From: Escherichia coli O127:H6 str. E2348/69
GTDB taxonomy: Bacteria; Pseudomonadota; Gammaproteobacteria; Enterobacterales; Enterobacteriaceae
Assembly: GCF_000026545.1 (NCBI RefSeq)
Contig: NC_011601.1
Length of the DNA: 64,000 nucleotides
Direction: 5' to 3' (one strand)
A program made the translations under genes and the position numbers. The notes beneath the pieces are model-generated. The model did not search any database. It was not told the origin of the DNA and saw nothing but the letters and a program-made list of their open reading frames with translations. Below are positions 1-34,687 of the stretch, piece after piece; position 1 is the first letter of the stretch; every line of letters begins with the position of its first letter.

Positions 1-1448
<1,448 letters not shown>

Positions 1449-1470
1449 CCCTGGCTTATGTGAGGAAGCG

Positions 1471-2013
1471 ATGATTATCTATTTGCACGGTTTTGACTCT
1501 AACAGTCCGGGTAACCACGAGAAAGTCTTACAATTGCAGTTTATTGACCCGGATGTACGGCTAATAAGCTACAGTACGAGGCATCCGAAACATGATATGC
1601 AGCATTTGCTCAAAGAAGTGGACAAAATGTTGCAACTGAACGTCGACGAGCGCCCGCTCATTTGTGGTGTTGGTCTGGGCGGTTATTGGGCTGAGCGGAT
1701 TGGTTTTCTCTGTGATATCCGCCAGGTGATCTTCAACCCTAATTTGTTCCCTTATGAGAACATGGAAGGGAAGATTGATCGCCCGGAAGAGTACGCCGAT
1801 ATTGCCACTAAGTGTGTGACCAACTTCCGTGAGAAGAATCGCGATCGTTGCCTGGTGATTTTGTCGCGTAATGATGAAGCGCTTAACAGCCAGCGGACAT
1901 CTGAAGAGTTGCATCATTATTACGAGATTGTCTGGGACGAAGAGCAGACGCACAAATTCAAGAATATCTCCCCGCATTTACAGCGCATTAAAGCGTTCAA
2001 AACCCTCGGGTAA
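1471..2013 (+). CDS. ycfP: UPF0227 family esterase YcfP
   Basis: Internal ATG of ORF 1414-2013 giving [18 protein letters not shown]... (180 aa); synteny. Confidence 0.9.
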
Positions 2014-2015
2014 AT

Positions 2016-2140
2016 GCCCTCGTCGCATCAGGTAACCTTGCCGGTACCTGATGCGCTCCGGATTCTGTGGGTTGGATAAGGCGTTCCGCCGGATCCGACA
2101 GTCGAGCATCAATGCCTGATGCGCCTCTTATCAGGCCTAC
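2016..2140. repeat. REP/BIME-type repetitive extragenic palindromes
   Basis: Tandem imperfect palindromes of the gcctgatgcg...cgcatcaggc type in the ycfP-ndh intergenic region. Confidence 0.7.
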
Positions 2141-2411
2141 CGAACGCCCTCCATACACACCTCACTCTATATCATTCTCACAAATCAGCTCAAATAATAA
2201 ACAACAAACTCTGTTTTTTGATCTCACCCGGTAAAGTCGCCTATCTTTTCAGCAACAAAACTTGATTAACATCAATTTTGGTATGACCAATGCACCATTC
2301 ATGTTATTCTCAATAGCGAAGAACATTTTCATTGCTGTAACCTGTTGTTAATTAAGAGCTATGTTAATAACCATTAATTAACAATTGGTTAATAAATTTA
2401 AGGGGGTCACG

Positions 2412-3716
2412 TTGACTACGCCATTGAAAAAAATTGTGATTGTCGGCGGCGGTGCTGGTGGGCTGGAAATGGCAACACAGCTGGGGCATAAGCTGGGACG
2501 CAAGAAAAAAGCCAAAATTACGCTGGTCGATCGTAACCACAGCCACCTGTGGAAACCGCTGCTGCACGAAGTGGCGACTGGCTCGCTTGATGAAGGCGTC
2601 GATGCGTTGAGCTATCTGGCCCATGCGCGCAATCATGGTTTCCAGTTCCAGCTGGGTTCCGTAATTGATATTGATCGTGAAGCGAAAACAATCACTATTG
2701 CAGAACTGCGCGACGAGAAAGGTGAACTGCTGGTTCCGGAACGTAAAATCGCCTATGACACCCTGGTAATGGCGCTGGGTAGCACCTCTAACGATTTCAA
2801 TACACCAGGTGTCAAAGAGAACTGCATTTTCCTCGATAACCCGCACCAGGCGCGTCGCTTCCACCAGGAGATGCTGAATCTGTTCCTGAAATACTCCGCC
2901 AACCTGGGCGCGAATGGCAAAGTAAACATTGCGATTGTCGGCGGCGGCGCGACGGGTGTAGAACTCTCCGCTGAATTGCACAACGCGGTCAAGCAACTGC
3001 ACAGTTACGGTTATAAAGGTCTGACCAACGAAGCCCTGAACGTAACGCTGGTAGAAGCGGGCGAACGTATTTTGCCTGCATTGCCGCCACGTATCTCTGC
3101 TGCGGCCCATAGTGAGTTAACGAAACTTGGCGTTCGCGTGCTGACGCAAACCATGGTCACCAGTGCTGATGAAGGCGGCCTGCACACTAAAGATGGCGAA
3201 TATATTGAGGCTGATCTGATGGTGTGGGCAGCCGGGATCAAAGCGCCAGACTTCCTGAAAGATATCGGTGGTCTTGAAACCAACCGTATCAACCAGCTGG
3301 TGGTGGAACCGACGCTGCAAACCACTCGCGATCCAGACATATACGCTATTGGCGACTGCGCGTCATGCCCGCGTCCGGAAGGGGGCTTTGTTCCGCCGCG
3401 CGCTCAGGCCGCACATCAGATGGCAACCTGCGCAATGAACAACATTCTGGCGCAGATGAACGGTAAGCAGCTGAAAAATTATCAGTATAAAGATCACGGT
3501 TCGCTGGTATCGCTGTCGAACTTTTCCACAGTCGGTAGCCTGATGGGTAACCTGACGCGCGGCTCAATGATGATTGAAGGACGAATTGCGCGCTTTGTAT
3601 ACATCTCGCTGTACCGAATGCACCAGATTGCGCTGCATGGTTACTTTAAAACCGGATTAATGATGCTGGTGGGGAGTATTAACCGCGTTATCCGTCCACG
3701 TTTGAAGTTGCATTAA
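2412..3716 (+). CDS. ndh: NADH dehydrogenase II (NDH-2)
   Basis: TTG start giving (M)[26 protein letters not shown]...; FAD/NAD GxGxxG motifs; matches Ndh as recalled. Confidence 0.93.
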
Positions 3717-3724
3717 TCGGCTTG

Positions 3725-3815
<91 letters not shown>

Positions 3816-3942
3816 ATTCCTTCAGACTCCTCCGAATCCCTAAGTATTTCCAGCCATTCCCGCGCTTTTCATCTTCTGTCTGATAGCTGCTTTTCTCCTT
3901 CGCTTGCATGATTGGCATAACAGCAAAGAAGGAGGTATTCCC

Positions 3943-4482
3943 GTGAATAAGTCAATGTTGGCGGGTATCGGGATTGGTGTCGCAGCTGCGCTGGGCGTAG
4001 CGGCAGTGGCCAGTCTGAACGTGTTTGAACGTGGCCCGCAATACGCTCAGGTTGTTTCTGCAACCCCAATCAAGGAAACGGTTAAAACACCGCGTCAGGA
4101 GTGTCGCAACGTTACAGTGACCCATCGTCGACCGGTGCAGGATGAAAATCGCATTACCGGGTCGGTGCTCGGCGCTGTTGCTGGCGGCGTGATTGGGCAT
4201 CAGTTTGGTGGTGGTCGCGGTAAAGATGTCGCCACTGTTGTGGGGGCGCTGGGGGGTGGATATGCAGGTAACCAGATCCAGGGCTCTCTCCAGGAAAGCG
4301 ATACTTACACGACTACGCAACAGCGTTGTAAAACGGTGTATGACAAGTCAGAAAAAATGCTCGGTTATGATGTGACCTATAAGATTGGCGATCAGCAGGG
4401 CAAAATCCGAATGGACCGCGATCCGGGTACGCAGATCCCGCTAGATAGCAACGGGCAGCTGATTTTGAATAACAAAGCATAA
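3943..4482 (+). CDS. ycfJ: Glycine-zipper outer-membrane protein YcfJ
   Basis: GTG start giving (M)NKSMLAGIGIGVAAALGVAAVASL...; glycine-rich repeats; synteny. Confidence 0.88.
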   Translation: MNKSMLAGIGIGVAAALGVAAVASLNVFERGPQYAQVVSATPIKETVKTPRQECRNVTVTHRRPVQDENRITGSVLGAVAGGVIGHQFGGGRGKDVATVVGALGGGYAGNQIQGSLQESDTYTTTQQRCKTVYDKSEKMLGYDVTYKIGDQQGKIRMDRDPGTQIPLDSNGQLILNNKA

Positions 4483-4504
4483 CAAGGTTGTACTCTGCAA
4501 TTTA

Positions 4505-4538
4505 GCCCCTCATTCGCTCAAGCTGAGGGGCTTTTTTT
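4505..4538 (+). terminator. Rho-independent terminator downstream of ycfJ
   Basis: GC-rich stem gcccctca...tgaggggc followed by a T-run. Confidence 0.75.
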
Positions 4539-4543
4539 GCGAC

Positions 4544-5176
4544 TTATTTCAGCAGTTCCGGCCATAAACGCAAAGTCGTTCGGGCAATCTGCATCAGTTT
4601 TTCCAGCGATGCACCTTCGCGTGCGCTGATCGACATCCCCTGAATAATACAATTAAGGAATTCTGCCAGATGCGTCACGTCACAGTGGGGCGGGATTTCC
4701 CCGCGCGCTTGTCGTTGACATAAAAACTGCTGCAAAGTGCGCTCTTGCATCGCATGGCGTGATTTCAGCGTATTGGCGATATCTCCAGAATCCGGGGAGA
4801 GGGTGGTGCAGTTGTTGATCATGAAGCAGCCAGCCGGAGTGTCTTTGCTGGTAAAGCAGTTGGCGATGGCAGCAAAATAGTCAGCCAGCGCAGACTCCAC
4901 GCTTTTCTCTTCACAAAACAGCTGTGCTTCATGCTTGGCGGCAAAACGATCGATATAGCGGTCGAGTACGGCGCGGAATAACCCCTCTTTGTTGGTAAAT
5001 TCCGCGTATAGCGTGGGCGCTTTAGCTCCGGTCGCTTCAACGAGGTCCGCAAGAGAAGTCGCTTCATAACCGTGCTGCCAGAACAATTTCATGGCCTTAT
5101 CAAGCGCGGCATCCCTGTCGAACACTTTTGGGCGGCCACGGCTTTTTTTTACACATTGTGTTGAGTCAGTTGCCAT
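4544..5176 (-). CDS. comR: TetR-family transcriptional repressor ComR (YcfQ)
   Basis: MATDSTQCVKKSRGRPKVFDRDAALDKAMKLFWQHGYEATSLADLVEATG... TetR N-terminal HTH; divergent from bhsA as in K-12. Confidence 0.88.
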   Translation of the reverse strand: MATDSTQCVKKSRGRPKVFDRDAALDKAMKLFWQHGYEATSLADLVEATGAKAPTLYAEFTNKEGLFRAVLDRYIDRFAAKHEAQLFCEEKSVESALADYFAAIANCFTSKDTPAGCFMINNCTTLSPDSGDIANTLKSRHAMQERTLQQFLCQRQARGEIPPHCDVTHLAEFLNCIIQGMSISAREGASLEKLMQIARTTLRLWPELLK

Positions 5177-5416
5177 GATGCCGTTGTACCTGGTGACTGT
5201 GAATGAAAGGTTATTATAAAAATAATCACCTCCGTTCACCAGTCCACAAACCATAAAAATAATTGCTTTCTATTTAACTGAAATTTAAAGATTTTTAAAT
5301 TAATTAATGATTGTTATAAAAAATATCTTGTATGTGATCCAGATCACATCTATCATTTAGTTATCGATCGTTAAGTAATTGCTTGCGACGTCATTCATCT
5401 GCATAAGGCCACTATT

Positions 5417-5674
5417 ATGAAAAACGTAAAAACCCTCATCGCTGCGGCGATTTTAAGCTCAATGTCATTTGCCAGCTTTGCGGCTGTCGAAGTTCAGTCA
5501 ACGCCAGAAGGCCAACAAAAAGTCGGTACTATCAGTGCTAACGCGGGGACAAATCTGGGATCGCTGGAAGAGCAGCTGGCGCAAAAAGCGGATGAGATGG
5601 GCGCAAAATCTTTCCGTATTACTTCTGTAACCGGTCCGAATACCCTCCATGGAACAGCAGTAATTTATAAATAA
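5417..5674 (+). CDS. bhsA: Multiple stress resistance protein BhsA (YcfR), secreted DUF1471-type
   Basis: 85-aa ORF with signal peptide MKNVKTLIAAAILSSMSFASFA; synteny. Confidence 0.9.
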   Translation: MKNVKTLIAAAILSSMSFASFAAVEVQSTPEGQQKVGTISANAGTNLGSLEEQLAQKADEMGAKSFRITSVTGPNTLHGTAVIYK

Positions 5675-5713
5675 GTATTAACCCTCATTAATGCCTGCTA
5701 CTGCTGATTTTTT

Positions 5714-5747
5714 CCCCGCGACATGCCGTGTCGCGGGGATTTTTTTA
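5714..5747 (+). terminator. Rho-independent terminator downstream of bhsA
   Basis: Stem ccccgcgac...gtcgcgggg followed by T7. Confidence 0.8.
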
Positions 5748-5755
5748 TCCGAGCT

Positions 5756-6715
5756 TTACAGAGTTTGTGGGCTCACTTGATGACGGCGGACATCCACCGG
5801 CATCCCGGAACGGACATCCATCACATGTTGCATCACTTCAGCGTCAGTTTGTGCTGCATCTTTAAATGATTGCATTGCGCTATTCAGCGTAATTGGCAGC
5901 AGCTGCGGATCGTCATCAATCTTCTCAGACAGCGGCTGATGTACTTCAACCAGACGCGCACCGTTTGGTTCGGCAGAGACTTTTATCGGAGTGTTGATGA
6001 TATTCACTTTGGTGCCTGGGGTGACCTGGCTAAAGAGTGTTTTGATATCGTCATCCCGCAGACGAATACAGCCAGAACTTACCCGCATGCCAATGCCGAA
6101 ATCGGCGTTCGTACCATGAAGCAAATAAACGCCGCCATAGGCCGCCAGACGAATCGCATGATGGCCCATTGGGTTATCCGGTCCTGCCGGCACTACCGCA
6201 GGCAACTCAATTCCCTGTGCCTTATACCGCGCGCGGATGTTTGCCGTTGGCGTCCAGGTTGGGTTTGCACGTTTGTCTGAAACGGTAGTCACCATCGTTG
6301 GCGTCAGCGTGTCACCACCTAACTGACCAATGCCGATGGGATACACGGTTACCGAATTTTTACCCGGCGGGTAGTAATAGAGACGCAGCTCCGCAATGTT
6401 GATCACAATGCCTTCGCGCGGCGCGTCTGGAAGTAGGGTTTGCAACGGGATCGTTAACACGCTACCCGCGCGCGGTACGTAAGGATCAACGCCGGGGTTA
6501 GCCTGTAACAGAGCGAGAAAGCCGACGTTATATTTTTTGGCGATCGCTTCCAGAGAACCACCGTCATTTTCCACCACATGAAATTTGTTTTCACCAACCA
6601 GACGACTGCCCGCTGACGGCAGCGGCCAGGTGTTGGCTTTTGCCGGTAGCGCCAGCGCCACGGCAGCGGCGAACGTAAAAAACGTTAGCCAGCGAGAAAA
6701 ACGCGTTTTGATCAT
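5756..6715 (-). CDS. ldtC: L,D-transpeptidase LdtC (YcfS)
   Basis: Internal start giving MIKTRFSRWLTFFTFAAAVALALPA...; LysM segment and YkuD catalytic region (HGT...SSGCIRL). Confidence 0.9.
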   Translation of the reverse strand: MIKTRFSRWLTFFTFAAAVALALPAKANTWPLPSAGSRLVGENKFHVVENDGGSLEAIAKKYNVGFLALLQANPGVDPYVPRAGSVLTIPLQTLLPDAPREGIVINIAELRLYYYPPGKNSVTVYPIGIGQLGGDTLTPTMVTTVSDKRANPTWTPTANIRARYKAQGIELPAVVPAGPDNPMGHHAIRLAAYGGVYLLHGTNADFGIGMRVSSGCIRLRDDDIKTLFSQVTPGTKVNIINTPIKVSAEPNGARLVEVHQPLSEKIDDDPQLLPITLNSAMQSFKDAAQTDAEVMQHVMDVRSGMPVDVRRHQVSPQTL

Positions 6716-6860
6716 CACCAAAGTCCATAATAAATATAATGTTATTGTAATAAAAAGGTAAGTCTGAATTATGGAGGGTGACAGTGTCGGATAGTGCAGG
6801 GAAGTGCAAAGAATTTGTAAATGTTGCAGATGGGGGCGCAGAGACGCCCCCGATTTACCA

Positions 6861-9800
6861 TCAAGCGATCGCGTTCTCTTCCAGTTCACGCATAAACTGG
6901 CGTACCCATTCGATACGCGTTTTCCGCTCGCTCAAATCCTGAATAAACTTCAGACGCGTCGGACCATCAAGGCGGTAATGCTGCGGCTGTTTTTGCAGCA
7001 AACCAATCAACCAGGCTGGATTAACGTGATTCTTCTCGGCAAATTCGATCACGCCGCCTTTCTCATTACCTTCCAGCTTCCTGATCCCCAGTTTCTGCGC
7101 TTGCTGGCGCAGACGGGCAATATCCAGCAGGGTACGCGCCGGATCCGGCAGCAGGCCGAAGCGATCGATAAGCTCGACTTTGATCTCTTCCAGTTCGTTT
7201 TCCGTTTTGGCGCTGGCAATACGTTTGTAGAACGACAGACGCGTGTTCACGTCAGGGATGAAATCATCTGGCAATAGCGACGGCATCCGCAGCTCGACTT
7301 CTGTTTGCTGGCTGGTGAGATCTTCCAGCGACGGCTCGCGTCCGGCTTTCAGCGCATCGACGGCGTTTTCCAGCAACTCCATATACAGCGAGAAACCGAT
7401 GGTTTCCATTGAGCCGCTTTGTTCTTCGCCAAGCAGTTCACCCGCGCCGCGGATCTCCAGATCGTGCGTTGCCAGCGCAAAACCTGCACCGAGATCTTCC
7501 AGCGAGGCAATCGCTTCAAGACGTTTTTGCGCATCGGTAGTCATCGCTTTTGGATGCGGCGTCAGCAGCCATGCATATGCCTGGTGGTGCGAACGCCCGA
7601 CGCGACCGCGCAACTGGTGCAACTGTGCCAGACCGAAGTGATCCGCACGTTCAATGATAATGGTGTTGGCGGTAGGAATGTCGATCCCGGTTTCGATAAT
7701 GGTGGTACAAACCAGCACGTTGAAACGTTGATGATGGAAATCATTCATCACCCGTTCCAGTTCGCGCTCACGCATTTGCCCGTGACCGATAGCAATCCGC
7801 GCTTCAGGTACCAGTTCTGCCAGCCGTTCGGCGGCTTTCTGGATGTTTTCCACATCATTGTAGAGATAATAAACCTGTCCTCCGCGCAAAATTTCACGCA
7901 GGATCGCCTCCCGGACCACCAGACTGTCATACTCACGGACAAAGGTTTTAACTGCCAGACGACGGGCGGGCGGCGTGGCGATAATCGACAGATCGCGCAT
8001 TCCGCTCATTGCCATATTCAGCGTACGTGGGATCGGCGTTGCGGTAAGCGTCAGAATATCCACGTTCGCGCGCATCGCTTTAATGCGCTCTTTATGACGT
8101 ACCCCGAAGCGGTGTTCTTCATCGACAATCAGCAGGCCTAAATCTTTAAACTTGACGTCACTTTGCAGCAGTTTGTGCGTACCGATCAGAATATCAATTT
8201 TCCCTTCCGCCACTTCCGCAAGGATTTGCGTCTGCTCTTTGGCGCTGCGGAAACGGGAGATCATTTCGATACGTACCGGCCAGTTGGCGAAACGGTCGCG
8301 GAAGTTGTCGTAATGCTGCTGCGCGAGAAGGGTGGTAGGCACCAGCACCGCCACCTGTTTGTGGTTATCTACCGCCAGGAAAGCGGCGCGCATCGCCACT
8401 TCTGTTTTACCAAAGCCAACATCGCCGCACACCAGACGATCCATTGCCAGCGGCTGACACATGTCGCTAAGCACCGCATTAATGGCTTGAGCCTGATCCG
8501 GCGTGGTTTCAAACGGGAAGCTGTCGCAGAATAACTGATACTGCTCACGATCGTGTTTAAACGCGAAGCCCTCTTTGGCGGCGCGTTGCGCGTAGATATC
8601 CAGCAATTCCGCCGCCACATCACGCACTTTTTCCGCCGCTTTCTGCCGTGCGCGTGACCAGGCATCGCCACCAAGTTTATGCAGTGGTGCGTTTTCTTCT
8701 GCGCCACCCGCGTAACGGCTAATCAGATGCAGTGACGACACCGGAACATACAGTTTGGCGTCGTTGGCATAGGTGAGCATCAAATACTCGCCAGTAATGC
8801 CTCCAGCTTCGAGCGTGGTCATTCCGGCATAACGACCGACGCCGTGCTCCAGATGGACCACCGGCTGACCAATATGCAGCTCCGCAAGGTTACGGATCAG
8901 TGTATCGGGGTTGATGGCGCGGCGAGAATCCTGACGACGACGGGCAACGCGTTCACCGAGCAGATCGCTTTCGCAAATCAGCGCCAGATTACGTACCGTA
9001 TCGACAAAACCATGCTCTGCAGCGCCAATCATCAGATAACGCCCACGGTCGCTGGCTTCATCAAGACGCATAATGCGTTGCGGAGCAATTTTAATTCGCG
9101 CGAGCAGTTCACCCAACGCTTCACGGCGGCCTTCACTTTCTACCGAGAACACCACCGGACCGTCGAAAGACTCGAGGAACTTACGCAGCGCATCCAGCGG
9201 CGCTTTTTGTTGTGCCTGAATGGCCAGGTCTGGCAGTTTCTGGAAACCTAAATTGGCATTCGCTGCTTTTGTCGGTAAATGTTCAGTTTTTAGCTGCACA
9301 CGGGGCCAGTTTTTCAGCTCTGAGAAGAGCTCATCCACCCGCAGCCAGAGCGATTGTGGTGGCAACAGTGGGCGCATTGGGTCGACACCGCGATTCTCAA
9401 AACGCGCGAGCGTGTCAGCCTGGAAACGTTCGGCACTGTTTTCCAGATCGCCAGTATTTACCAGCAGCGTATTGGCAGGGAAATAACTGAACAGTGGCGG
9501 CAGCGGTTCGCTGAAGAATAGTGGCTGCCAGTACTCGATCCCGGCAGGTAATGTGCCTTTACTCACTTGCTGGTAAATATGTTCCGGATCGCGCTTCACT
9601 TCGAAGGTATCACGCCACTGGCTGCGGAACAGTTCAATTGCCGCTTTATCGGTCGGAAATTCGTGCGCGGGCAGCAGATTGATCGCATCTACTTCCTCCA
9701 GCGTGCGCTGGCTATCGACGTCAAACACCCGCAGGCTGTCGATTTCATCATCAAAGAAATCAAGACGATAAGGCAGCTCACTCCCCATAGGGAAGAGATC

Positions 9801-10307
9801 CAGCAACGCGCCGCGCGTGGCGTATTCGCCGTGCTCCATCACCTGGTCAACATGGCGATAACCGGCGCTGTCCAGTTGGGTTCGTAATGCATCTCGTGAC
9901 AGGCGCTGACCTTTTTTCATCACCAGCGCATGACCGTGGAGAAAGCTGTGCGGGCAAACGCGCTGCATAAGCGTATTCACCGGAACAATCAGTACGCCAC
10001 GCTGCATGGTCGGTAGCTGGTAAAGGGTGGAAAGGCGCGAGGAGATAATGTCCTGATGAGGCGAAAAACTGTCGTAAGGGAGGGTTTCCCAGTCCGCCAG
10101 ATTCATCACCATCTGATCGGTAAACTGGCTGATTTCATCATGCAAACGCAGAGCATTTTGCATATCTGGTGCAATGAGTACCACCGGACCGGCGTGACGT
10201 TCGGCAATTTCCGCTACCAGCGTCGCGCAGGCAGCGCCGGTTAACTCGCCCAGCAGACGCTGCTCACCCGCTTTGACGGGCAGCGTATAACGATATTGTT
10301 CAGGCAT
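6861..10307 (-). CDS. mfd: Transcription-repair coupling factor Mfd
   Basis: About 1148 aa from MPEQYRYTLPVKAGEQRLLGEL...; DEAD/DEAH helicase motifs (GDVGFGKTEVAMRAAF, DEEHRFG), TRCF domain. Confidence 0.95.
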   Translation of the reverse strand: MPEQYRYTLPVKAGEQRLLGELTGAACATLVAEIAERHAGPVVLIAPDMQNALRLHDEISQFTDQMVMNLADWETLPYDSFSPHQDIISSRLSTLYQLPTMQRGVLIVPVNTLMQRVCPHSFLHGHALVMKKGQRLSRDALRTQLDSAGYRHVDQVMEHGEYATRGALLDLFPMGSELPYRLDFFDDEIDSLRVFDVDSQRTLEEVDAINLLPAHEFPTDKAAIELFRSQWRDTFEVKRDPEHIYQQVSKGTLPAGIEYWQPLFFSEPLPPLFSYFPANTLLVNTGDLENSAERFQADTLARFENRGVDPMRPLLPPQSLWLRVDELFSELKNWPRVQLKTEHLPTKAANANLGFQKLPDLAIQAQQKAPLDALRKFLESFDGPVVFSVESEGRREALGELLARIKIAPQRIMRLDEASDRGRYLMIGAAEHGFVDTVRNLALICESDLLGERVARRRQDSRRAINPDTLIRNLAELHIGQPVVHLEHGVGRYAGMTTLEAGGITGEYLMLTYANDAKLYVPVSSLHLISRYAGGAEENAPLHKLGGDAWSRARQKAAEKVRDVAAELLDIYAQRAAKEGFAFKHDREQYQLFCDSFPFETTPDQAQAINAVLSDMCQPLAMDRLVCGDVGFGKTEVAMRAAFLAVDNHKQVAVLVPTTLLAQQHYDNFRDRFANWPVRIEMISRFRSAKEQTQILAEVAEGKIDILIGTHKLLQSDVKFKDLGLLIVDEEHRFGVRHKERIKAMRANVDILTLTATPIPRTLNMAMSGMRDLSIIATPPARRLAVKTFVREYDSLVVREAILREILRGGQVYYLYNDVENIQKAAERLAELVPEARIAIGHGQMRERELERVMNDFHHQRFNVLVCTTIIETGIDIPTANTIIIERADHFGLAQLHQLRGRVGRSHHQAYAWLLTPHPKAMTTDAQKRLEAIASLEDLGAGFALATHDLEIRGAGELLGEEQSGSMETIGFSLYMELLENAVDALKAGREPSLEDLTSQQTEVELRMPSLLPDDFIPDVNTRLSFYKRIASAKTENELEEIKVELIDRFGLLPDPARTLLDIARLRQQAQKLGIRKLEGNEKGGVIEFAEKNHVNPAWLIGLLQKQPQHYRLDGPTRLKFIQDLSERKTRIEWVRQFMRELEENAIA

Positions 10308-28040: not shown

Positions 28041-28494
28041 GCAGAAAATCCGACAGGTCTGCCGCCAGTGCATGGACCGCTGCCGGGCGGGTGAAACATG
28101 GCCTCCGGACCTGGCTGAGTTTGTGGCGCTGATTTCTGAAAGCGGAGCCAATCCATTCGGTCTGACGGTGGATGCCGTGATGGAGGAGTACCGTCGCTGG
28201 CGCAACGAGTCCTGGCGATACGACGGGAGCGATAAATACCCGTGGTCTCAGCCTGTGCTGTATCACATTTGCCTCGAGATGCGTTCAAAGGGGATTGAGC
28301 GGCAGATGACCGAAGGGGAGTTAAAACGGCTTGCAGAACGGCAGCTGACGAAATGGGCAAAGCATGTTAGTAACGGCCTGAGTGTTCCGCCAGTCCGGCG
28401 ACAACTGGCGGCACCCAAACGCCCGTCGGGGCCAACGCCAATTGAGTTGCTGAAACAGGAATATGAACGCCGGAAAGCGGCTGGGCTTGTCTGA
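27952..28494 (+). CDS. Replication protein P-like helicase loader
   Basis: Colinear similarity to lambda P C-terminal half as recalled (YPWS..., ...GELKRLAERQL..., ...KWAKHVSNGLSVPPV); start uncertain (27829, 27952 or 28033). Confidence 0.6.
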   Translation: MGEVYSNRWTQKNGAAPSKLWIAQIGAMTEQKIRQVCRQCMDRCRAGETWPPDLAEFVALISESGANPFGLTVDAVMEEYRRWRNESWRYDGSDKYPWSQPVLYHICLEMRSKGIERQMTEGELKRLAERQLTKWAKHVSNGLSVPPVRRQLAAPKRPSGPTPIELLKQEYERRKAAGLV

Positions 28495-28526
28495 GTTGAG
28501 AAGTAATTTTTACCGGGAGGAAATTT

Positions 28527-28801
28527 ATGGAGACTGTTTTTGACGCACTGAAAGCAATGGGAAAAGCCACATCCATAGAACTTGCTGCGCGCGTGAAGAA
28601 GTGCTGAACGAACTATGGGAACTGAAAAAGGCTGGTTTTGTTGATAAAAGCGCGTACACCTGGCGTGTGGCTGATAACAACGTTCAGCAGGAACAGCCAG
28701 CGCAGGCAGAACTGCCGGAAGAAACCACCACAATGAGTGAAGTTATGCAGCGCATACTGGCATTTTATCAGGGAAATGTTCGATATTTTAGACGTTACTA
28801 G
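28527..28801 (+). pseudogene. Small phage ORF apparently interrupted by frameshift/stop
   Basis: ATG at 28527 gives [26 protein letters not shown] and the sense continues in another frame (ORF 28601-28801). Confidence 0.35.
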
Positions 28802-29240
28802 ATTAAAGAGCATTAGTTCAGATGTGAATTGACATTGTGTGGCACAGGGTTGGGCTAGCGTGGGGGTTTGCTTTGTGTAAGAAACGGATGCTCTGCAAAT
28901 TACTACTAATGCTTAATGTTAGTCTGATCTGCTCCCCGATGATTAATACACCGCTATGTTAGTAATGTCTGTAGATCGCTGTGTGTTGCATCCATCGGTT
29001 GACCCCACAGTCCAAACCAGACTGTCAGCTTTGATTCGATTCTATCTACTCAACCTGTCAGGTAATGTCTGAGCTAATACACAGAGTACGGCTATCGCGA
29101 ACTTTAAGCTAGGTATCTGATACGCACCGTTCACTTGGTCGTACTTCTTGCACTGACTAGCTATCGTGCGCAGTTATTTATAGGTAATCTCCAGTGTATA
29201 ATTTTCCAACTTATGGGAGATTGTAAAACAGGAGGAATAT

Positions 29241-30083
29241 ATGAGGAAAAAATCGTTTGGACGTTGCCCGTTTGATTTCGACGAAGATGTAAAAAAAATA
29301 GCCGCGATAAATAAATATATCCATGCGAAATTTGAGAGGCATAAAAATAAAATAGATAACCTAAAGGGGGTGGAACAAAAATTGATGGTTTTACATTACT
29401 TTAATGTACTGAATGAACTTAGTAATCAGGCTATATTTTCTTTGAGTACCGGAGCCTTTTCAGCATCGGAAGTATTAACTAGAGTTATAATGGAACAGGC
29501 TGCCAATCAATTTTATATAGCAATTGATGATGGAAAAAATGCACAAGCATTACTCAAGGGTAGTAAGAAATTAGTTCATAGTAATGGGAAACGGTGGCTG
29601 GAGTGTTTAAAATCCAAAGAAATGACTAATCCAGCAGCAGATGAAAGGATTCGTATCGGAAAAGAGCTAACTGATATGTTTAATAGATTGTGGCCAAATA
29701 CACCTGAATATCCTGGAACCAAAAAGCTTTTCGAAGTAATTGGCTGGGAAACACACTATCATGCCTATTACGTCCCTCTTTGTGATTCAATACATACATT
29801 CTCTGATGATATGGCAAATATAGTATCTCTATATAATGCAATCCAAAGCGATAAAACTACTGCTATCGAACTCACTCTTGCAGTTAAACAAGAAAATAAA
29901 CGGCTGGCAATTTATAATGTCGTAATTGCTATTGGCCTGCGGTGTGAGGCCTTAGTAAATGTATTTAACTCTTTAGGTTATCGAGATATTATAACTGAAA
30001 TGGCGCCAACAATAGATGCAGTCAACCAGATTATAATTCGATATGATGATTTCGAACATTCCAGAATTTTTTATTGTCAATAA
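29241..30083 (+). CDS. Uncharacterised 280-aa protein in AT-rich accessory island
   Basis: Clean ORF with RBS aggagg 8 nt upstream; visibly AT-rich codon usage; no motif I can assign. Confidence 0.7.
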   Translation: MRKKSFGRCPFDFDEDVKKIAAINKYIHAKFERHKNKIDNLKGVEQKLMVLHYFNVLNELSNQAIFSLSTGAFSASEVLTRVIMEQAANQFYIAIDDGKNAQALLKGSKKLVHSNGKRWLECLKSKEMTNPAADERIRIGKELTDMFNRLWPNTPEYPGTKKLFEVIGWETHYHAYYVPLCDSIHTFSDDMANIVSLYNAIQSDKTTAIELTLAVKQENKRLAIYNVVIAIGLRCEALVNVFNSLGYRDIITEMAPTIDAVNQIIIRYDDFEHSRIFYCQ

Positions 30084-30140
30084 TTAATTGGCAGAATTCG
30101 TACATGCACAACAACTAGTTATAGTTGACCTATTTCGCTC

Positions 30141-30710
30141 TTGAGAGACAACCATACTCAAATCTTCCACATTGCAGGAGATTTGAGTATGAATACGTCA
30201 CCGAGGAACAAAGACAGTATCATAGGCCCAAAAAGACCACTTCAGATATCTCATATCTGGGGGCTCCAAATCCGGCTTGAACTGGAAGGTAAAACGCGTG
30301 ATTTAGCTCGGTTTCAAGCAGAGCTACGGTGCTGCAACTGAAAAACTGGCAGTCCTATCCAATTTGAGATAACCAAAGGGACAAGAGAAGCTGTTTCTGC
30401 ATTGATAAAGCTTGGCAATTTACGCAGTAAAGACTACTTGTTCCGATCTCGGGTCGGTACTAACCAACACATATCAATCCTGCAATATAACCGAATCTTT
30501 CATAGGAGGGAGAAAAGCTTGGTCTCGAAGATTCGCTTTACAGCACACATTCCATGAGAAGAACAAAACCTTGCCTTGTCTGCAAGAAAACTAAGAATCT
30601 CCGGGTGATCCAACTTCCGTTGGGCCATAAGAAAACGGAAAGCACAGTTCGTTATCTGGGTATAGAAGTTGATGATGCATTAGAGATCTCTGAATCGATC
30701 GAAGTCTAAA
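30141..30710 (+). pseudogene. Degraded tyrosine recombinase/integrase
   Basis: Three short frames with recombinase hallmarks: GPKRPLQISHIWGLQIRLELEGKTRDLA (N-terminal) and HSMRRTKPCLV...LPLGHKKTESTVRYLGIEVDDALEISE (box II His/Arg and catalytic Tyr region); interrupted by stops/frameshifts. Confidence 0.6.
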
Positions 30711-31121
30711 GCTGTCAGGGCTGCAGCAGCAGCCCTGTGCCAAGAGCGTACCAATATATGTCTCAAAAAATTGGGCACAGGTCAATATCAATACCAACAA
30801 CTCTGATTGTGCTCATGTGATTTACTCCTGTAGAAAACGCAGACAGTAAAAATATTTCACTGGCTGCTTCAGACAGGGCGTCCATCATATCATTACATAA
30901 CAATAGCGGGGCACGATATCTAGACATGCAGCAACGATGGACATAGAATGAGTACAATCAAAAGCATGTTTAACTACTTTAATTTAAAAATCTTAGAATC
31001 TTAGGTGTAGAGTTCAATACTTAGTTACATACCCTTTTGAAAGCATCACAAATCATAACTATGAGCCTGTTAAAGGCATAGGTATTCTTAATTAAGAGCA
31101 TTTTAATGAGAGAAAAATAAA

Positions 31122-32495
31122 ATGAAAAGACTATATTATACCCATCATGATAGTCGAACCTTAAAACTTGCTATAGAAGGTGATGTTTCTGATAATGCGA
31201 ATATTTTTACAGTAATTGTAGGTAAAAATGGCGTTGGAAAAAGCAGATTGTTATCTCAGATTGCTAAAGACTGTATTCAAGATATTCATTTCTTGAAAAC
31301 TTTTAATCCATTATTTGACAGAGAAATAACACCAAAGTTAATTGCCGTATCTACCAGCCCATTCGATAAATTCCCTCCAGGGCGTAGGTCATTAAATCAC
31401 CAAAGGAAAGAAAATAATTATCGCTATGTGGGTATGCGTGGAGAAGGCCCCTTCGGCGTATCAAATGCCGTATCCCTTTTATCTTCAGCAGCGAGAGGTT
31501 GGCTAGAGAAACTTGCTTATTCAGAAAATCCTGCAAATTTACTCGATGTTTTTCATTCTATTGATTTTGAGCCCCATATAGAGTTTGTATTTAAACCAAC
31601 TTACAACGGACCGGACACTCCTGACTATAACTTCATTGGTGTATATTCAGATGAGATATTAACGGAAGTTAAGGAGTTATATTTAAAATACAATATAAAA
31701 ATTGACAGGAAGAATATTGAGAGTCTCTTAAAGTTAAACTCCGAATCACGTCATGATATTTACGAAGCACTGGTTGAAATTAATCGATTTGAACCTGAAC
31801 GTAGGGCTGTAACCTTGTCAGTCGATTTTACCAATGGTGAAACATTGGTTGGCTCGACTTATGCGAATAATTATTTTTCTAGATCAATTCTTAAACTTAT
31901 GAACGCTGGCTTCATGAGATTGATGGATATGCGACTCATAAAAAAAAGCTATGGTCCCATGTCACTTAAACGTGCGAGCTCGGGAGAACAATGTTTATTA
32001 GTGATGTTGCTTGGAATTGCAGGGCATATAACTGATGGTTCTATAATACTAATTGATGAACCGGAAATAAGCTTGCATCCTCGATGGCAGGAAGAGTTTA
32101 TCATTATGTTAACAAAAGCATTTTTAACTTACTCAGGTTGTCAATTCATAATTGCAACTCATTCACCACAAATAATATCCAATTTGCCGAATAAAGGTTG
32201 TTATATAACATCTTTGTCGAAAAGTTATCTTTATAAAGCAAAATACTTTAGCAACCGGTCTGCAGACTATCAACTTGCGGAACTATTTGATGCCCCTGGC
32301 ATTATGAATGAATACATTGCCAGATTAGCTTTCAATTTACTTTCAAAAGTTAAGACTGCTAAGTTAGTAACAGATGATAATTGGCGTGAATTAAAACAAC
32401 TCCAGCTTCTCCTTGAAAACGTTAATAGTAATGACCCTATTAATGAACTCGTAAATTCCGTATCTCAGGTGTGTGAAATTTATGCCAAAAATTAA
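31122..32495 (+). CDS. ABC/AAA_21-type ATPase, Septu PtuA-like
   Basis: Walker A VIVGKNGVGKSRLL; Walker B + D-loop IILIDEPEISLHP; H-loop IIATHSPQII; 457 aa; overlaps downstream HNH gene. Confidence 0.75.
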   Translation: MKRLYYTHHDSRTLKLAIEGDVSDNANIFTVIVGKNGVGKSRLLSQIAKDCIQDIHFLKTFNPLFDREITPKLIAVSTSPFDKFPPGRRSLNHQRKENNYRYVGMRGEGPFGVSNAVSLLSSAARGWLEKLAYSENPANLLDVFHSIDFEPHIEFVFKPTYNGPDTPDYNFIGVYSDEILTEVKELYLKYNIKIDRKNIESLLKLNSESRHDIYEALVEINRFEPERRAVTLSVDFTNGETLVGSTYANNYFSRSILKLMNAGFMRLMDMRLIKKSYGPMSLKRASSGEQCLLVMLLGIAGHITDGSIILIDEPEISLHPRWQEEFIIMLTKAFLTYSGCQFIIATHSPQIISNLPNKGCYITSLSKSYLYKAKYFSNRSADYQLAELFDAPGIMNEYIARLAFNLLSKVKTAKLVTDDNWRELKQLQLLLENVNSNDPINELVNSVSQVCEIYAKN

Positions 32496-33117
32496 AAATC
32501 CAATTAGATTCAGCGCAGAGTCATTAGATATTATTGAGAAAAAATTGTCTTCTCCAGATTTTAAGCATACCAACTGGGGAGATGATGATTTGCAAGTTCT
32601 CCGTGCAGAAATTAGAAATCATTACAGAGAAGAACAAAAGCTAGAATGTGTATATTGTCATGAGCCTATTGGGGTAAGAGCTGCACAAGCTGCTCCTATA
32701 GAGCATATTGTGCCAAAATCTCAATATCTATGTTTTATTTTTGAACCTAAGAATCTATGTGTAGTATGTCCTGACTGCAATGAATTCAAAGGTAAAAATG
32801 AAGTGTTATTTGAACCCGTAATAAATGGGGGGCGGCGCAAAAACTATCCAACTGCATCTGCATCATTTCGCATCGTTCATCCACATATAGATGATTATGA
32901 GATGCATATTATAAAAGCAAATCGTGTTTATGTGGACAAAACACCTAAAGGGCACTATACCATTGGAATATGTAAACTAAATAGATTTTTTCATTATTTT
33001 GGGATGTGTGATGAATTTGTTAATGATGCAAAAATTGCTGAGGCAAATGAAAATTTTTTCAAAAAAGGTAGTATTACTACTAATGAATTATTGGATGATG
33101 ACATTCATTTGATTTAA
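32473..33117 (+). CDS. HNH endonuclease, Septu PtuB-like
   Basis: HNH/zinc motif CVYCHEP...IEHIVPKS...CVVCPDCNEFKGKN; 214 aa; start overlaps ATPase gene end by 23 nt. Confidence 0.75.
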   Translation: MKFMPKIKNPIRFSAESLDIIEKKLSSPDFKHTNWGDDDLQVLRAEIRNHYREEQKLECVYCHEPIGVRAAQAAPIEHIVPKSQYLCFIFEPKNLCVVCPDCNEFKGKNEVLFEPVINGGRRKNYPTASASFRIVHPHIDDYEMHIIKANRVYVDKTPKGHYTIGICKLNRFFHYFGMCDEFVNDAKIAEANENFFKKGSITTNELLDDDIHLI

Positions 33118-33371
33118 CTATGAATTATTATATTGTAAAGTAATCAGGTAAGATATGTTAGACAGTGAGACTATTGCCTTACAGAATTCATTATTCTTAT
33201 GGATCGCCTTTCTGACTGATTTCATATTGGCGGGGTAACGGGAGTTAAGTAGAATGGCTGCGGGTGCTTGAGGCTATCTGTCTCAGGCATGAACACCAAA
33301 GGCAGATAGAGAAAAGCCCCAGTTAACATTACGCGTCCTGCAAGACGCTTAACATTAATCTGAGGCCAATT

Positions 33372-34460
33372 TCATGCTAGACACATGTAGGTTAGCCTCT
33401 TACGTGCCGGAAGGCAAGGAGATGTATGGGTCCACCACATATTGCAATTTTTATTCTCTTTTAAAATATATTCCACGGGCGTCATTAGTGCGAGCGCCTT
33501 GTGGGGTCTTTTGCTGTTATACAGCACCAGATATTCCGCCAGCTTCTGGTTAAATAGCGCCAGATCTTCAAAGAGTAAAATCTCATTAAATTCAATAAAC
33601 TGCTCTCTTAACGTCCGGTTAAAACGTTCACAGATAGCGTTCATTTTTGGCGTGTAGGGATAGGTCCAGAGGTGTTTGATAGCGGCTTCCTGCAGCGTTT
33701 TGTCGAAGTTTCCCAGGAACTCTTTTCCGTTATCTGTGATTATCTGGCTGATACCGACCGGGAACAACCGGGCTGCGCGGCTGAAGAAGTGATTGACGAT
33801 ATCACTGTTGAGTGACGGCACAGCCAGCGCCAGCGCGTAATTGCTGCATTCGTCGATCATGGTGATGACATAGCGACGCAGTTCGCCCATTCTGAGCTCA
33901 ATGGCGTCCATCCCAATGAGCTCACCTGTCTTTACCGGGCGGTAGTGCTTTGGCCTGCGGGGTTTGGCAGACCGCTTTTTGACAAGCAGTGCCTTCCCCC
34001 GCGATCCCAGACGCACAGGTATCATCCGCATTTTATCATGTGCGGCAGCGATCATTCTGCCGATGGTGGAAACACTCGGACAGGCCAGATAGCGCTGTTC
34101 GCACCAGGGCTTCAGGCGAACAAAAATCTGCTCTTTACCGAGGTTCGGCAGCTCTGTCCTGAGGCGTCGAATCTCTTTCAGCACATCGGGATGCCAGTGT
34201 TTTTTTCGTCGCACCAGAGGTGCCTTACTGTGCGGGATTAGCCCCTCAGGTCCTTCCTTGTTCAGTAACTGACGCCACCAGTAAAGCGTGCGGCAGGACA
34301 CGCCAAAGGCTTCAGAAGCTGCAGAAATACCGTGTTTATCCCAGAAGTGCAGAGCCTTCATTCTCATTGTTGCTATATCAGCCATCACTGAAAGCCTCAA
34401 CGCATAATCGGCCGTTTGGTAGTACTTAGGATAGCCAACCATCAGATGCTGCATTTGCAT
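33372..34460 (-). CDS. IS481-family DDE transposase (integrase-core/rve domain)
   Basis: 362 aa; N-terminal HTH (...CRTLYWWRQ...), DDE core, C-terminal ...YNSKRPHKALALMTPVEY typical of rve transposases. Confidence 0.7.
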   Translation of the reverse strand: MQMQHLMVGYPKYYQTADYALRLSVMADIATMRMKALHFWDKHGISAASEAFGVSCRTLYWWRQLLNKEGPEGLIPHSKAPLVRRKKHWHPDVLKEIRRLRTELPNLGKEQIFVRLKPWCEQRYLACPSVSTIGRMIAAAHDKMRMIPVRLGSRGKALLVKKRSAKPRRPKHYRPVKTGELIGMDAIELRMGELRRYVITMIDECSNYALALAVPSLNSDIVNHFFSRAARLFPVGISQIITDNGKEFLGNFDKTLQEAAIKHLWTYPYTPKMNAICERFNRTLREQFIEFNEILLFEDLALFNQKLAEYLVLYNSKRPHKALALMTPVEYILKENKNCNMWWTHTSPCLPARKRLTYMCLA

Positions 34461-34490
34461 AGTGCAATCTCCCCTTACTTATCCGGAGGC
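33372..34490 (-). mobile_element. IS481-family insertion sequence (approximate limits)
   Basis: Single-ORF DDE transposase; imperfect terminal inverted repeats ccggaaggcaaggagat (about 33406) and revcomp of atctccccttacttatccgg (about 34467-34486); exact ends not resolved. Confidence 0.6.
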
Positions 34491-34531
34491 AATTGCAATA
34501 TCTCTGTGAACTTACACAGGAGAAGCAGGCT

Positions 34532-34687
34532 ATGAAGCAGCAAAAGGCGATGTTAATCGCCCTGATCGTCATCTGTTTAACCGTCATAGTGACGACACTG
34601 GTAACGAGGAAAGACCTCTGCGAGGTACGAATCCGAACCGGCCAGACGGAGGCCGCTGTCTTCACAGCTTACGAACCTGAGGAGTAA
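34532..34687 (+). CDS. hok: Hok/Gef-family type I toxin
   Basis: MKQQKAMLIALIVICLTVIVTTLVTRKDLCEVRIRTGQTEAAVFTAYEPEE, near-identical in pattern to Hok/Gef peptides as recalled. Confidence 0.9.
   Translation: MKQQKAMLIALIVICLTVIVTTLVTRKDLCEVRIRTGQTEAAVFTAYEPEE

What the first reader, a model, noticed from the sequence alone, without database searches (positions are those of the whole stretch)
29241..30083. Orphan 280-aa ORF with no recognisable motifs heading the AT-rich island
A clean, RBS-preceded ORF in the same AT-rich block as the ATPase/HNH pair, with codon usage unlike the flanking phage genes. I cannot place it in any family from sequence inspection (no nucleotide-binding, nuclease, HTH or membrane signatures). 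It is preceded by about 440 bp of non-coding AT-rich DNA with a TATAAT hexamer near 29196. Its position (cargo slot of a lambdoid prophage, adjacent to a defence pair and a recombinase remnant) makes it a candidate single-gene abortive-infection or anti-phage factor, or an additional component of the neighbouring system. This is the least-explained coding sequence in the window.
Basis: inference. Interest (0 to 1): 0.65.

Follow-up and report, generated by a model that had tools for sequence, protein, structure and literature searches.

The report
HEPN-fold DUF5677 prophage cargo gene
The 280-codon ORF is a real, conserved gene of the uncharacterised DUF5677 family whose predicted structure has the fold of HEPN RNA-cutting toxins and which moves between prophages as a single-gene cassette, so it is a plausible but untested anti-phage or toxin gene, not a part of the neighbouring Septu system.

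Summary
The window is E. coli E2348/69 (Rac-like lambdoid prophage). The ORF at 29241-30083 is real: strong RBS, GC3 27% against 47-66% in flanking phage genes, dN/dS 0.36 between two alleles, AlphaFold pLDDT 94.8. It is not an orphan. It matches Pfam DUF5677 (E 8.9e-9) and PHROG 4167 over its full length, and RefSeq already names it so. No function is known for the family.

The gene and 317 nt of leader travel with a small tyrosine recombinase. About 38 genomes carry this cassette in P2-like prophages without Septu. A Vibrio relative is a single integron cassette, and other relatives are solitary. The link to PtuAB is one recent module found in 18 genomes.

The best reading is a stand-alone HEPN-type conflict effector. 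Defence is circumstantial: there are no PADLOC hits, and a distant DUF5677 gene gave no protection in Enterococcus.

The parts
28924..29240 (+). Conserved non-coding leader of the cassette, with TATAAT at 29197-29202 and RBS AGGAGG at 29229-29234.
   Evidence: About 90% identical, with one 19-nt indel, to the sequence upstream of the P2-prophage allele. The shared homology starts at 28924. No ORF of 50 codons or more. The promoter is not confirmed.
29241..30083 (+). DUF5677-family gene (WP_001227887.1), 280 aa, all-alpha with a predicted HEPN-type fold. Invariant residues are R81, E85, F164, Y173 and H185.
30135..30742 (+). Pseudogene of a small (about 200 aa) catalytic-domain-only tyrosine recombinase that travels with the DUF5677 gene. 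A perfect 13-nt palindrome at 30153-30165 / 30179-30191 overlaps its start codon.
   Evidence: RefSeq marks it 'frameshifted; internal stop'. Intact 194-aa copy in P2 prophages: Pfam Phage_integrase 5e-17 and XerC/XerA-like C-terminal half. Homology limits 30135-30742 against L003 and L004. Palindrome.
31122..32495 (+). PtuA (Septu ATPase). It is a neighbour in the same AT-rich island, not part of the DUF5677 unit.
   Evidence: PADLOC PDLC00283, E 1.9e-165. Present only in the 18 genomes with the lambdoid island.
32473..33117 (+). PtuB (Septu HNH nuclease). It is a neighbour, not part of the DUF5677 unit.
   Evidence: PADLOC PDLC00325, E 1.1e-83.

Best explanation
The ORF encodes a stand-alone, all-helical protein of the uncharacterised DUF5677 family, and its core has a HEPN-superfamily fold. 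It is autonomous cargo: the gene and its 317-nt leader move as a cassette with a small tyrosine recombinase. That recombinase has decayed in this window.

I infer that it is a conflict effector of the abortive-infection or toxin type, which binds or cuts RNA through a non-canonical HEPN-like site. That site would be built from the invariant R81 (within E77-x3-R81, which fits the HEPN Ex3[KR] pattern), E85 and N89 on one helix. The other helix junction would supply the invariant H185 with S183, D190 and N193. The protein would stay latent until phage infection.

Shown: the gene is real and under purifying selection, it belongs to the family, the predicted fold is HEPN-like, the cassette is mobile, and it occurs without Septu. 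Inferred: RNase or RNA-binding activity, the trigger, and the anti-phage role.
For: Gene and family.

Selection: dN/dS is 0.36 between the 87.5%-identical alleles, and every invariant residue is kept. The gene stays intact while the adjacent recombinase is a pseudogene in the lambdoid copies examined.

Motifs: R81-x4-H86 is the canonical HEPN motif in 17 of 44 family representatives. R81, E85 and H185 are invariant. PMC3710099 describes HEPN families, including AF0298/2hsb and AbiV, that lack the motif His and keep an alternative conserved His. It also describes the Ex3[KR] motif.

Mobility and context:
- The same cassette sits in P2-like prophages between gpG and FI.
- A Vibrio parahaemolyticus homologue is a single integron cassette.
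- An Aliarcobacter homologue lies at the edge of an integrated inovirus, and another lies beside ParDE.
- Paralogous copies of the small recombinase are flanked by HEC-08, HNH, GIY-YIG and restriction-endonuclease genes.
- DUF5677 was statistically enriched next to serine recombinases in Bacillota defence contigs.
Against: No sequence-level link to any HEPN family was found. Pfam gives only DUF5677 for all 44 members. A PDB profile search gives nothing. hhalign against a DUF3644/HEC-08 HEPN alignment gives probability 0.5%.

This protein has Q86 where the catalytic His of Rx4-6H would be. I could not inspect model coordinates, so the proximity of R81 and H185 is an assumption.

There are no PADLOC hits. 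The one DUF5677 ORF tested in E. faecalis against six phages was not among the five protective ORFs.

Several homologues sit alone among metabolic and regulatory genes, not in defence islands. Of six other P2 gpG-FI slots sampled, none held a recognised defence gene.
Confidence: 0.45

Rival explanations
1. It is a third component or accessory of the adjacent Septu (PtuA/PtuB) system, for example a sensor or regulator.
For: It lies in the same AT-rich island, on the same strand, with similar GC3. In E. coli this PtuAB allele is never seen without it.
Against: The linkage is one recent module, at least 99.8% identical in 18 genomes. About 38 genomes carry the cassette in P2 prophages with no PtuAB. 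No distant homologue locus has an ATPase/HNH pair. A recombinase pseudogene and about 1 kb separate the genes, and PtuA has its own promoter-like site at 30921-30949. By my recollection of PADLOC's system definitions (not checked here), Septu is a two-gene system; here PtuA and PtuB each match their PADLOC models strongly.
Confidence: 0.05
2. It is a catalytically inactive HEPN-like protein that acts as a regulator or adaptor (MtlR-like RNA or protein binder). Alternatively, it is an accessory factor for the small tyrosine recombinase, for example controlling cassette excision or integration.
For: The canonical His is replaced by Q86. PMC3710099 notes non-catalytic HEPN proteins. The gene sits about 50-100 nt upstream of the recombinase on the same strand in both E. 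coli contexts. DUF5677 is enriched next to serine recombinases.
Against: Most homologues have no recombinase nearby. The gene is kept intact where the recombinase is dead. Eight or more invariant or nearly invariant polar residues on two helices look more like a catalytic or ligand site than a scaffold. Other copies of the same recombinase carry unrelated genes in that position.
Confidence: 0.17
3. It is a selfish toxin or addiction-type stabiliser of the cassette, or a stress-responsive RNase, with no anti-phage role.
For: HEPN proteins are frequent toxins (PMC3710099). The gene occurs in an integron array and beside ParDE, both typical toxin-antitoxin settings. It shares its island with hok/sok.
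Against: There is no conserved small partner gene. The upstream 78-aa and 82-aa ORFs in two loci show no evident similarity to each other on inspection, and none exists in the window. An unopposed toxin would not persist as a solitary gene.
Confidence: 0.15
4. It benefits the prophage in another way, for example as an anti-defence factor, in superinfection exclusion, or as a lysogenic-conversion factor.
For: It sits in moron slots of two unrelated temperate phage types. In the lambdoid prophage it is co-oriented with the early-right operon.
Against: It is absent from sequenced phage genomes (INPHARED tblastn, no match) and from viral structure predictions (BFVD, no hit). Relatives occur in non-phage chromosomal sites and in an integron.
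Confidence: 0.1

Closest known systems
LA2681-like, Apea-like and AbiU2-like HEPN families (Anantharaman et al. 2013; about 250-300 aa stand-alone HEPN proteins)
   Same: Similar size, all-helical, and similar over the full length by Foldseek (E 1.6e-7 to 2e-3, TM 0.55-0.65). They are sporadically distributed, often solitary or on mobile elements. AbiU2 belongs to a lactococcal abortive-infection system.
   Different: No detectable sequence similarity. Those families keep Rx4-6H, whereas this protein has R81-x4-Q86 and an invariant His about 100 residues downstream.
AF0298-type HEPN-T (PDB 2hsb) and AbiV
   Different: In those families the alternative His lies N-terminal to the motif. Here H185 lies C-terminal to R81. 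This protein is twice as long, with extra helices, and has no MNT partner.
HEC-08 / DUF3644 (EC042_2821-type HEPN), a PADLOC defence candidate
   Same: It occupies the same position next to the same small tyrosine recombinase in other E. coli islands. It is also a HEPN-family protein.
   Different: It has canonical E-x3-K and R-N-x3-H motifs plus a Cys-rich C-terminal half. It has no profile similarity to DUF5677.
Integron-cassette HEPN (PDB 3jrt family)
   Same: These are HEPN proteins carried as single integron cassettes in Gammaproteobacteria. A DUF5677 homologue is a single cassette in a V. parahaemolyticus array.
Septu (PtuA/PtuB)
   Same: It is the physical neighbour in the same island.
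   Different: There is no homology and no independent co-occurrence.

Membership tests
Pfam DUF5677 (PF18928) | Significant match to the family HMM | tested here: met
   E 8.9e-9 over residues 49-195. All 44 aligned relatives match, best 3.4e-20. RefSeq uses the same name.
PHROG phrog_4167 | Full-length match to the profile | tested here: met
   E 9.7e-177 over positions 1-280 of 280. The family has no known function.
HEPN superfamily | Core of about 100-120 residues forming an up-and-down four-helix bundle | tested here: met
HEPN superfamily | Rx4-6H catalytic motif | tested here: not met
   This protein has R81-V-I-M-E-Q86. The motif R81-x4-H86 is present in 17 of 44 family representatives. 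H185 is invariant but about 100 residues away.
HEPN superfamily | Upstream conserved acidic residue, typically Ex3[KR] | tested here: inconclusive
   E77-x3-R81 fits the pattern (E in 41 of 44, R in 44 of 44). I could not verify its register against the HEPN core because no coordinates or structural alignment were available.
HEPN superfamily | Sequence-profile similarity to a recognised HEPN family | tested here: not met
   Pfam returns no HEPN family. PDB hmmsearch gives nothing. hhalign against DUF3644 gives probability 0.5%.
HEPN superfamily | Metal-independent RNase activity | not testable with these tools
   Needs biochemistry.
Septu system (as an extra component) | Conserved co-occurrence with PtuA/PtuB across independent loci | tested here: not met
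   Co-occurrence is limited to one near-identical module in 18 genomes. PtuAB is absent from about 38 P2-borne copies and from the distant homologue loci sampled.
Known anti-phage defence systems (PADLOC-DB v2) | Match to a defence or candidate-defence protein model | tested here: not met
   0 families at E up to 0.1.
Anti-phage defence gene (functional class) | Recurrent location in variable, defence-rich or mobile slots | tested here: inconclusive
   For: the lambdoid slot with Septu, the P2 tail-gene accessory slot, an integron cassette, an inovirus edge, ParDE, and a recombinase whose other copies flank HEC-08 and nuclease genes. Against: solitary copies among housekeeping genes. Other P2 slots sampled held invertases or unknown genes.
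Anti-phage defence gene (functional class) | Protection against phage when expressed | not testable with these tools
   The only published test I found was of a distant Bacillota DUF5677 ORF, which was not among the protective ones in E. faecalis against six phages.
Type II toxin-antitoxin module | Conserved adjacent small partner gene | tested here: not met
   There is no conserved neighbour. Small upstream ORFs in L010 and L024 show no evident similarity to each other, and none exists in the window.

The most novel reading that the evidence does not exclude
DUF5677 is an unrecognised clade of the HEPN superfamily in which the catalytic His has moved to another helix (H185), working with the invariant R81. 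It would act as a single-gene abortive-infection RNase. It would be shuttled among P2-like and lambdoid prophages by a small catalytic-domain-only tyrosine recombinase. That recombinase would mark a widespread exchange point for defence cassettes, present in more than 1500 of 5426 complete E. coli genomes, as a tyrosine-recombinase counterpart of the serine-recombinase 'RADS' markers.
Probability: 0.2. Interest if true: 0.6.

Novelty: new member of a known kind. Interest (0 to 1): 0.4.

Why it matters
E2348/69 is the prototype EPEC strain, and its prophage carries a validated type of defence (Septu) next to this gene. If the DUF5677 protein is an active HEPN-type effector, it would add a single-gene defence or toxin family to the E. 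coli repertoire. It would also give a function to a Pfam DUF and provide another case of HEPN active-site rewiring.

The recombinase-plus-variable-cargo pattern seen alongside could be a practical marker for finding further defence cassettes in Enterobacteria. If the gene proves inert in phage assays, it remains an ordinary uncharacterised moron.

Tried and rejected
- PADLOC and NCBIfam on the protein gave no hits.
- tblastn against 50,697 phage genomes gave no match. The BFVD viral fold search gave no hit. The gene is therefore not a common phage gene.
- A PDB sequence-profile search gave only chance hits.
- A profile search of the 5.8-billion-protein set with alignment A1 returned only family members and no bridge to HEPN families.
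- hhalign of A1 against HEC-08/DUF3644 alignments gave probabilities of 0.3% and 0.5%.
With the single protein it returned 11 loci, all of them the same lambdoid island.
- I considered an invertible promoter switch, FimB/E-style, for the 317-nt leader. Of the 60 records listed, 55 align to at least 80% of the leader plus gene (28924-30100) as a single co-linear piece, so there are no inversion variants. I rejected this idea.
- The 35-nt imperfect inverted repeat at 29154-29188 / 30892-30926 (77% complementary) is absent from the P2 cassette and only marginally above chance by my rough estimate. I did not use it.
- Rfam on 28400-33400 found nothing in the leader or the gene.
- A survey of six other P2 gpG-FI slots found serine invertases with alternative tail-fibre segments, or unknown cargo, and no recognised defence genes. 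This did not strengthen the 'defence hotspot' argument.
- Literature searches for DUF5677, PF18928 and the protein accession found no functional study.

Full report
**Where the window comes from and what surrounds the ORF.** The 4.4-kb stretch around the finding is 100% identical to E. coli E2348/69 (NZ_CP059840.2). RefSeq annotation places it in a Rac-like lambdoid prophage next to potC. The gene order is: integrase, excisionase, exonuclease, dicB/ydfABC, repressor, dicC/cro-like, ydaT, O-like, P, a truncated DUF1627 gene, then the AT-rich island, then hokD, rem, DUF968, RusA.

The island holds the ORF in question, a tyrosine-recombinase pseudogene and an ATPase/HNH pair. PADLOC identifies the pair as Septu: PtuA matches PDLC00283 at E 1.9e-165 and PtuB matches PDLC00325 at E 1.1e-83.

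**Checking the observation.** The ORF is at 29241-30083 (+) and is 280 aa long. AGGAGG lies 6 nt before the ATG. The ORF has GC 34.9% and GC3 27%. Flanking phage genes have GC 50-58% and GC3 47-66%, while PtuA and PtuB are 28% and 21% at GC3. An open run of that length at this composition has a chance probability of about 8e-10.

The 439 nt upstream hold no ORF of 50 codons or more and contain TATAAT at 29197-29202. That stretch is only mildly AT-rich (GC 42.6%), and the consensus promoter scan did not call a promoter there.

The word 'orphan' does not hold. The protein matches Pfam DUF5677 (E 8.9e-9) and PHROG 4167 end to end (E 1e-176), and RefSeq already names it 'DUF5677 domain-containing protein'. 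PADLOC and NCBIfam give nothing.

**Is it a functional gene?** A full HMMER scan of 1.84 billion cluster representatives finds 53 relatives at E up to 1e-3. The full-length ones are 260-330 aa (most about 270-300), and the rest are shorter fragments. An alignment of 44 of them shows five invariant residues: R81, E85, F164, Y173 and H185. Nine more are conserved in at least 90% of sequences: E77, L79, N89, W119, P158, S183, D190, N193 and Y225.

E. coli has two alleles, 87.5% identical in protein. Between them dN/dS is 0.36 (dS 0.167), and every conserved residue is retained. The gene stays intact in the lambdoid copies, whereas the adjacent recombinase is a pseudogene in every lambdoid copy I examined.

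Further down come Csm6, a HEPN toxin, nucleotidyltransferase C-terminal domains, AbiA, AbiV and LsoA. Foldseek against AFDB50 returns DUF5677 proteins first. It then returns full-length matches annotated 'LA2681-like HEPN' (E 1.6e-7, TM 0.65), 'Apea-like HEPN' and 'HEPN AbiU2-like'.

No viral structure matches and no sequenced phage genome encodes the protein. It is therefore accessory cargo, not a phage core gene.

**Active-site question.** The HEPN hallmark is Rx4-6H, usually with an upstream Ex3[KR] (PMC3710099). In DUF5677 the invariant R81 sits in E77-x3-R81-x3-E85. Position 86 is His in 17 of 44 representatives, which gives a canonical R-x4-H. In this protein and its closest relatives it is Gln. 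H185 is invariant in all sequences.

The same paper notes that AF0298 (my best structural hit) and AbiV lack the motif His but keep an alternative conserved His that could rebuild the site. It also notes that other families keep the His and recruit a basic residue from elsewhere. Either scheme could apply here.

I could not settle it because the tools give no coordinates. The register of R81 and H185 relative to the HEPN core, and their proximity, remain inference.

Sequence-level links to HEPN families were sought and not found. Pfam gives only DUF5677. The PDB profile search gives nothing. hhalign against a DUF3644/HEC-08 HEPN alignment gives probability 0.5%. Membership of the HEPN superfamily therefore rests on predicted structure only.

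**Mobility and neighbourhoods.** About 57 of 5426 complete E. coli genomes carry the gene, in two contexts.
- Allele A is at least 99.6% identical in 18 genomes. It always lies in the lambdoid slot, in the order DUF5677, recombinase pseudogene, PtuA, PtuB, hokD.
- Allele B is about 90% identical at DNA level and occurs in about 38 genomes, including S88, IHE3034 and ATCC 11775. It lies in P2-like prophages between the tail-fibre assembly gene and the sheath gene, with an intact 194-aa tyrosine recombinase and a 124-aa unknown gene. These copies have no Septu.

The shared DNA runs from 28924 to about 30673, which covers 317 nt of leader, the gene and the recombinase. The PtuAB allele occurs in exactly the 18 allele-A genomes at 99.8% identity or more. 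The association with Septu is therefore one recent event, not independent co-occurrence. IMG/VR holds only this same island.

More distant homologues have no conserved partner and no ATPase/HNH pair:
- A Vibrio parahaemolyticus copy is a single cassette between attC-like repeats in a 16-repeat integron array.
- An Aliarcobacter copy abuts an integrated inovirus.
- One copy sits beside ParDE.
- Pseudomonas-sized genomes, Aeromonas and other loci hold solitary copies among metabolic and regulatory genes.

**Literature.** I found no functional study of DUF5677. One preprint found the domain statistically enriched next to serine recombinases in Bacillota defence contigs. It tested one DUF5677 ORF in E. 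faecalis against six phages, and that ORF was not among the five protective ORFs. A 2026 preprint reports a P2 accessory-gene hotspot within the tail genes that holds 16% of P2 defence systems. In my own sample of six other gpG-FI slots, four held a serine invertase with alternative tail-fibre segments and two held unknown single genes. None matched PADLOC.

**Verdict.** The ORF is a real, selected, mobile single-gene module that encodes a HEPN-fold DUF5677 protein. The most likely mechanism is a latent HEPN-type RNA-targeting effector used in phage-host or element-host conflict, working through R81 and H185 rather than the canonical motif. I put this at about 0.45.

The rivals are:
- a non-catalytic regulator or recombinase accessory (0.17)
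- a toxin or stabiliser without an anti-phage role (0.15)
- another prophage-benefit function (0.10)
- a Septu component (0.05)

Because the family is already catalogued and the fold class is known, I rate it a new member of a known kind. It is of moderate interest and easy to test.

Noticed in passing
window 30135-30742; loci L003, L004, L016, L031-L034: A catalytic-domain-only tyrosine recombinase of about 200 aa is a pseudogene in the window but matched, at least in part, in more than 1500 of 5426 complete E. coli genomes, and is annotated intact in most copies sampled. In every context sampled, different and mostly nuclease-like cargo flanks it on both sides: HEC-08/DUF3644, HNH, GIY-YIG, 'restriction endonuclease', a CBS protein, Septu and DUF5677. 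Homology breaks right at the edges of the recombinase module. It looks like a recombinase-marked exchange point for defence cassettes.
   Followed up: partly
window 30153-30165 / 30179-30191: A perfect 13-nt inverted repeat with a 13-nt spacer overlaps the recombinase start codon. It is conserved in the P2 cassette and in the L003 and L004 copies, about 18 nt inside the point where upstream cargo begins to differ. It could be a recombination site or a translational hairpin.
   Followed up: no
window 33262-34687: An IS481-family element at 33423-34517 (6-bp target duplication) is inserted between the hok leader/sok region (Rfam sok, 112 bits, 33262-33428) and the hokD coding sequence (34532-34687). 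IS-free relatives have hokD directly after PtuB. The insertion probably uncouples hokD from its leader. The transposase ORF (33372-34460, minus strand) reads 51 nt beyond the IS end into flanking DNA.
   Followed up: partly
NZ_CP148379.1 (locus L046): An 8461-bp record deposited as a circular plasmid consists only of the repressor, cro-like gene, ydaT, O, P, the DUF5677-Septu island, hokD and rem from this prophage. It is either a lambda-dv-like replicon or an assembly artefact.
   Followed up: no
window 29154-29188 and 30892-30926: A 35-nt imperfect inverted repeat (77% complementary) brackets the DUF5677 gene and the recombinase remnant. The right arm overlaps a promoter-like site upstream of PtuA. 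It is not present in the P2 version of the cassette and its significance is marginal.
   Followed up: partly
locus L017 (Vibrio parahaemolyticus contig), 1-10141: This is a chromosomal integron array with 16 attC-like repeats of about 120 nt. A DUF5677 homologue at 1290-2141 is one cassette among many small unknown genes.
   Followed up: partly
loci L025-L030 (P2-like prophages, slot between gpG and FI): The slot that holds the DUF5677 cassette in S88-type prophages usually holds a serine invertase with alternative tail-fibre and assembly segments. In two other prophages it holds single unknown genes (phrog_13435, 471 aa; phrog_7729, 258 aa) with no PADLOC match.
   Followed up: partly
window 28601-28801: A truncated DUF1627/DUF977-like gene marks the left edge of the island. 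Homology to island-free prophages stops near 28886.
   Followed up: no
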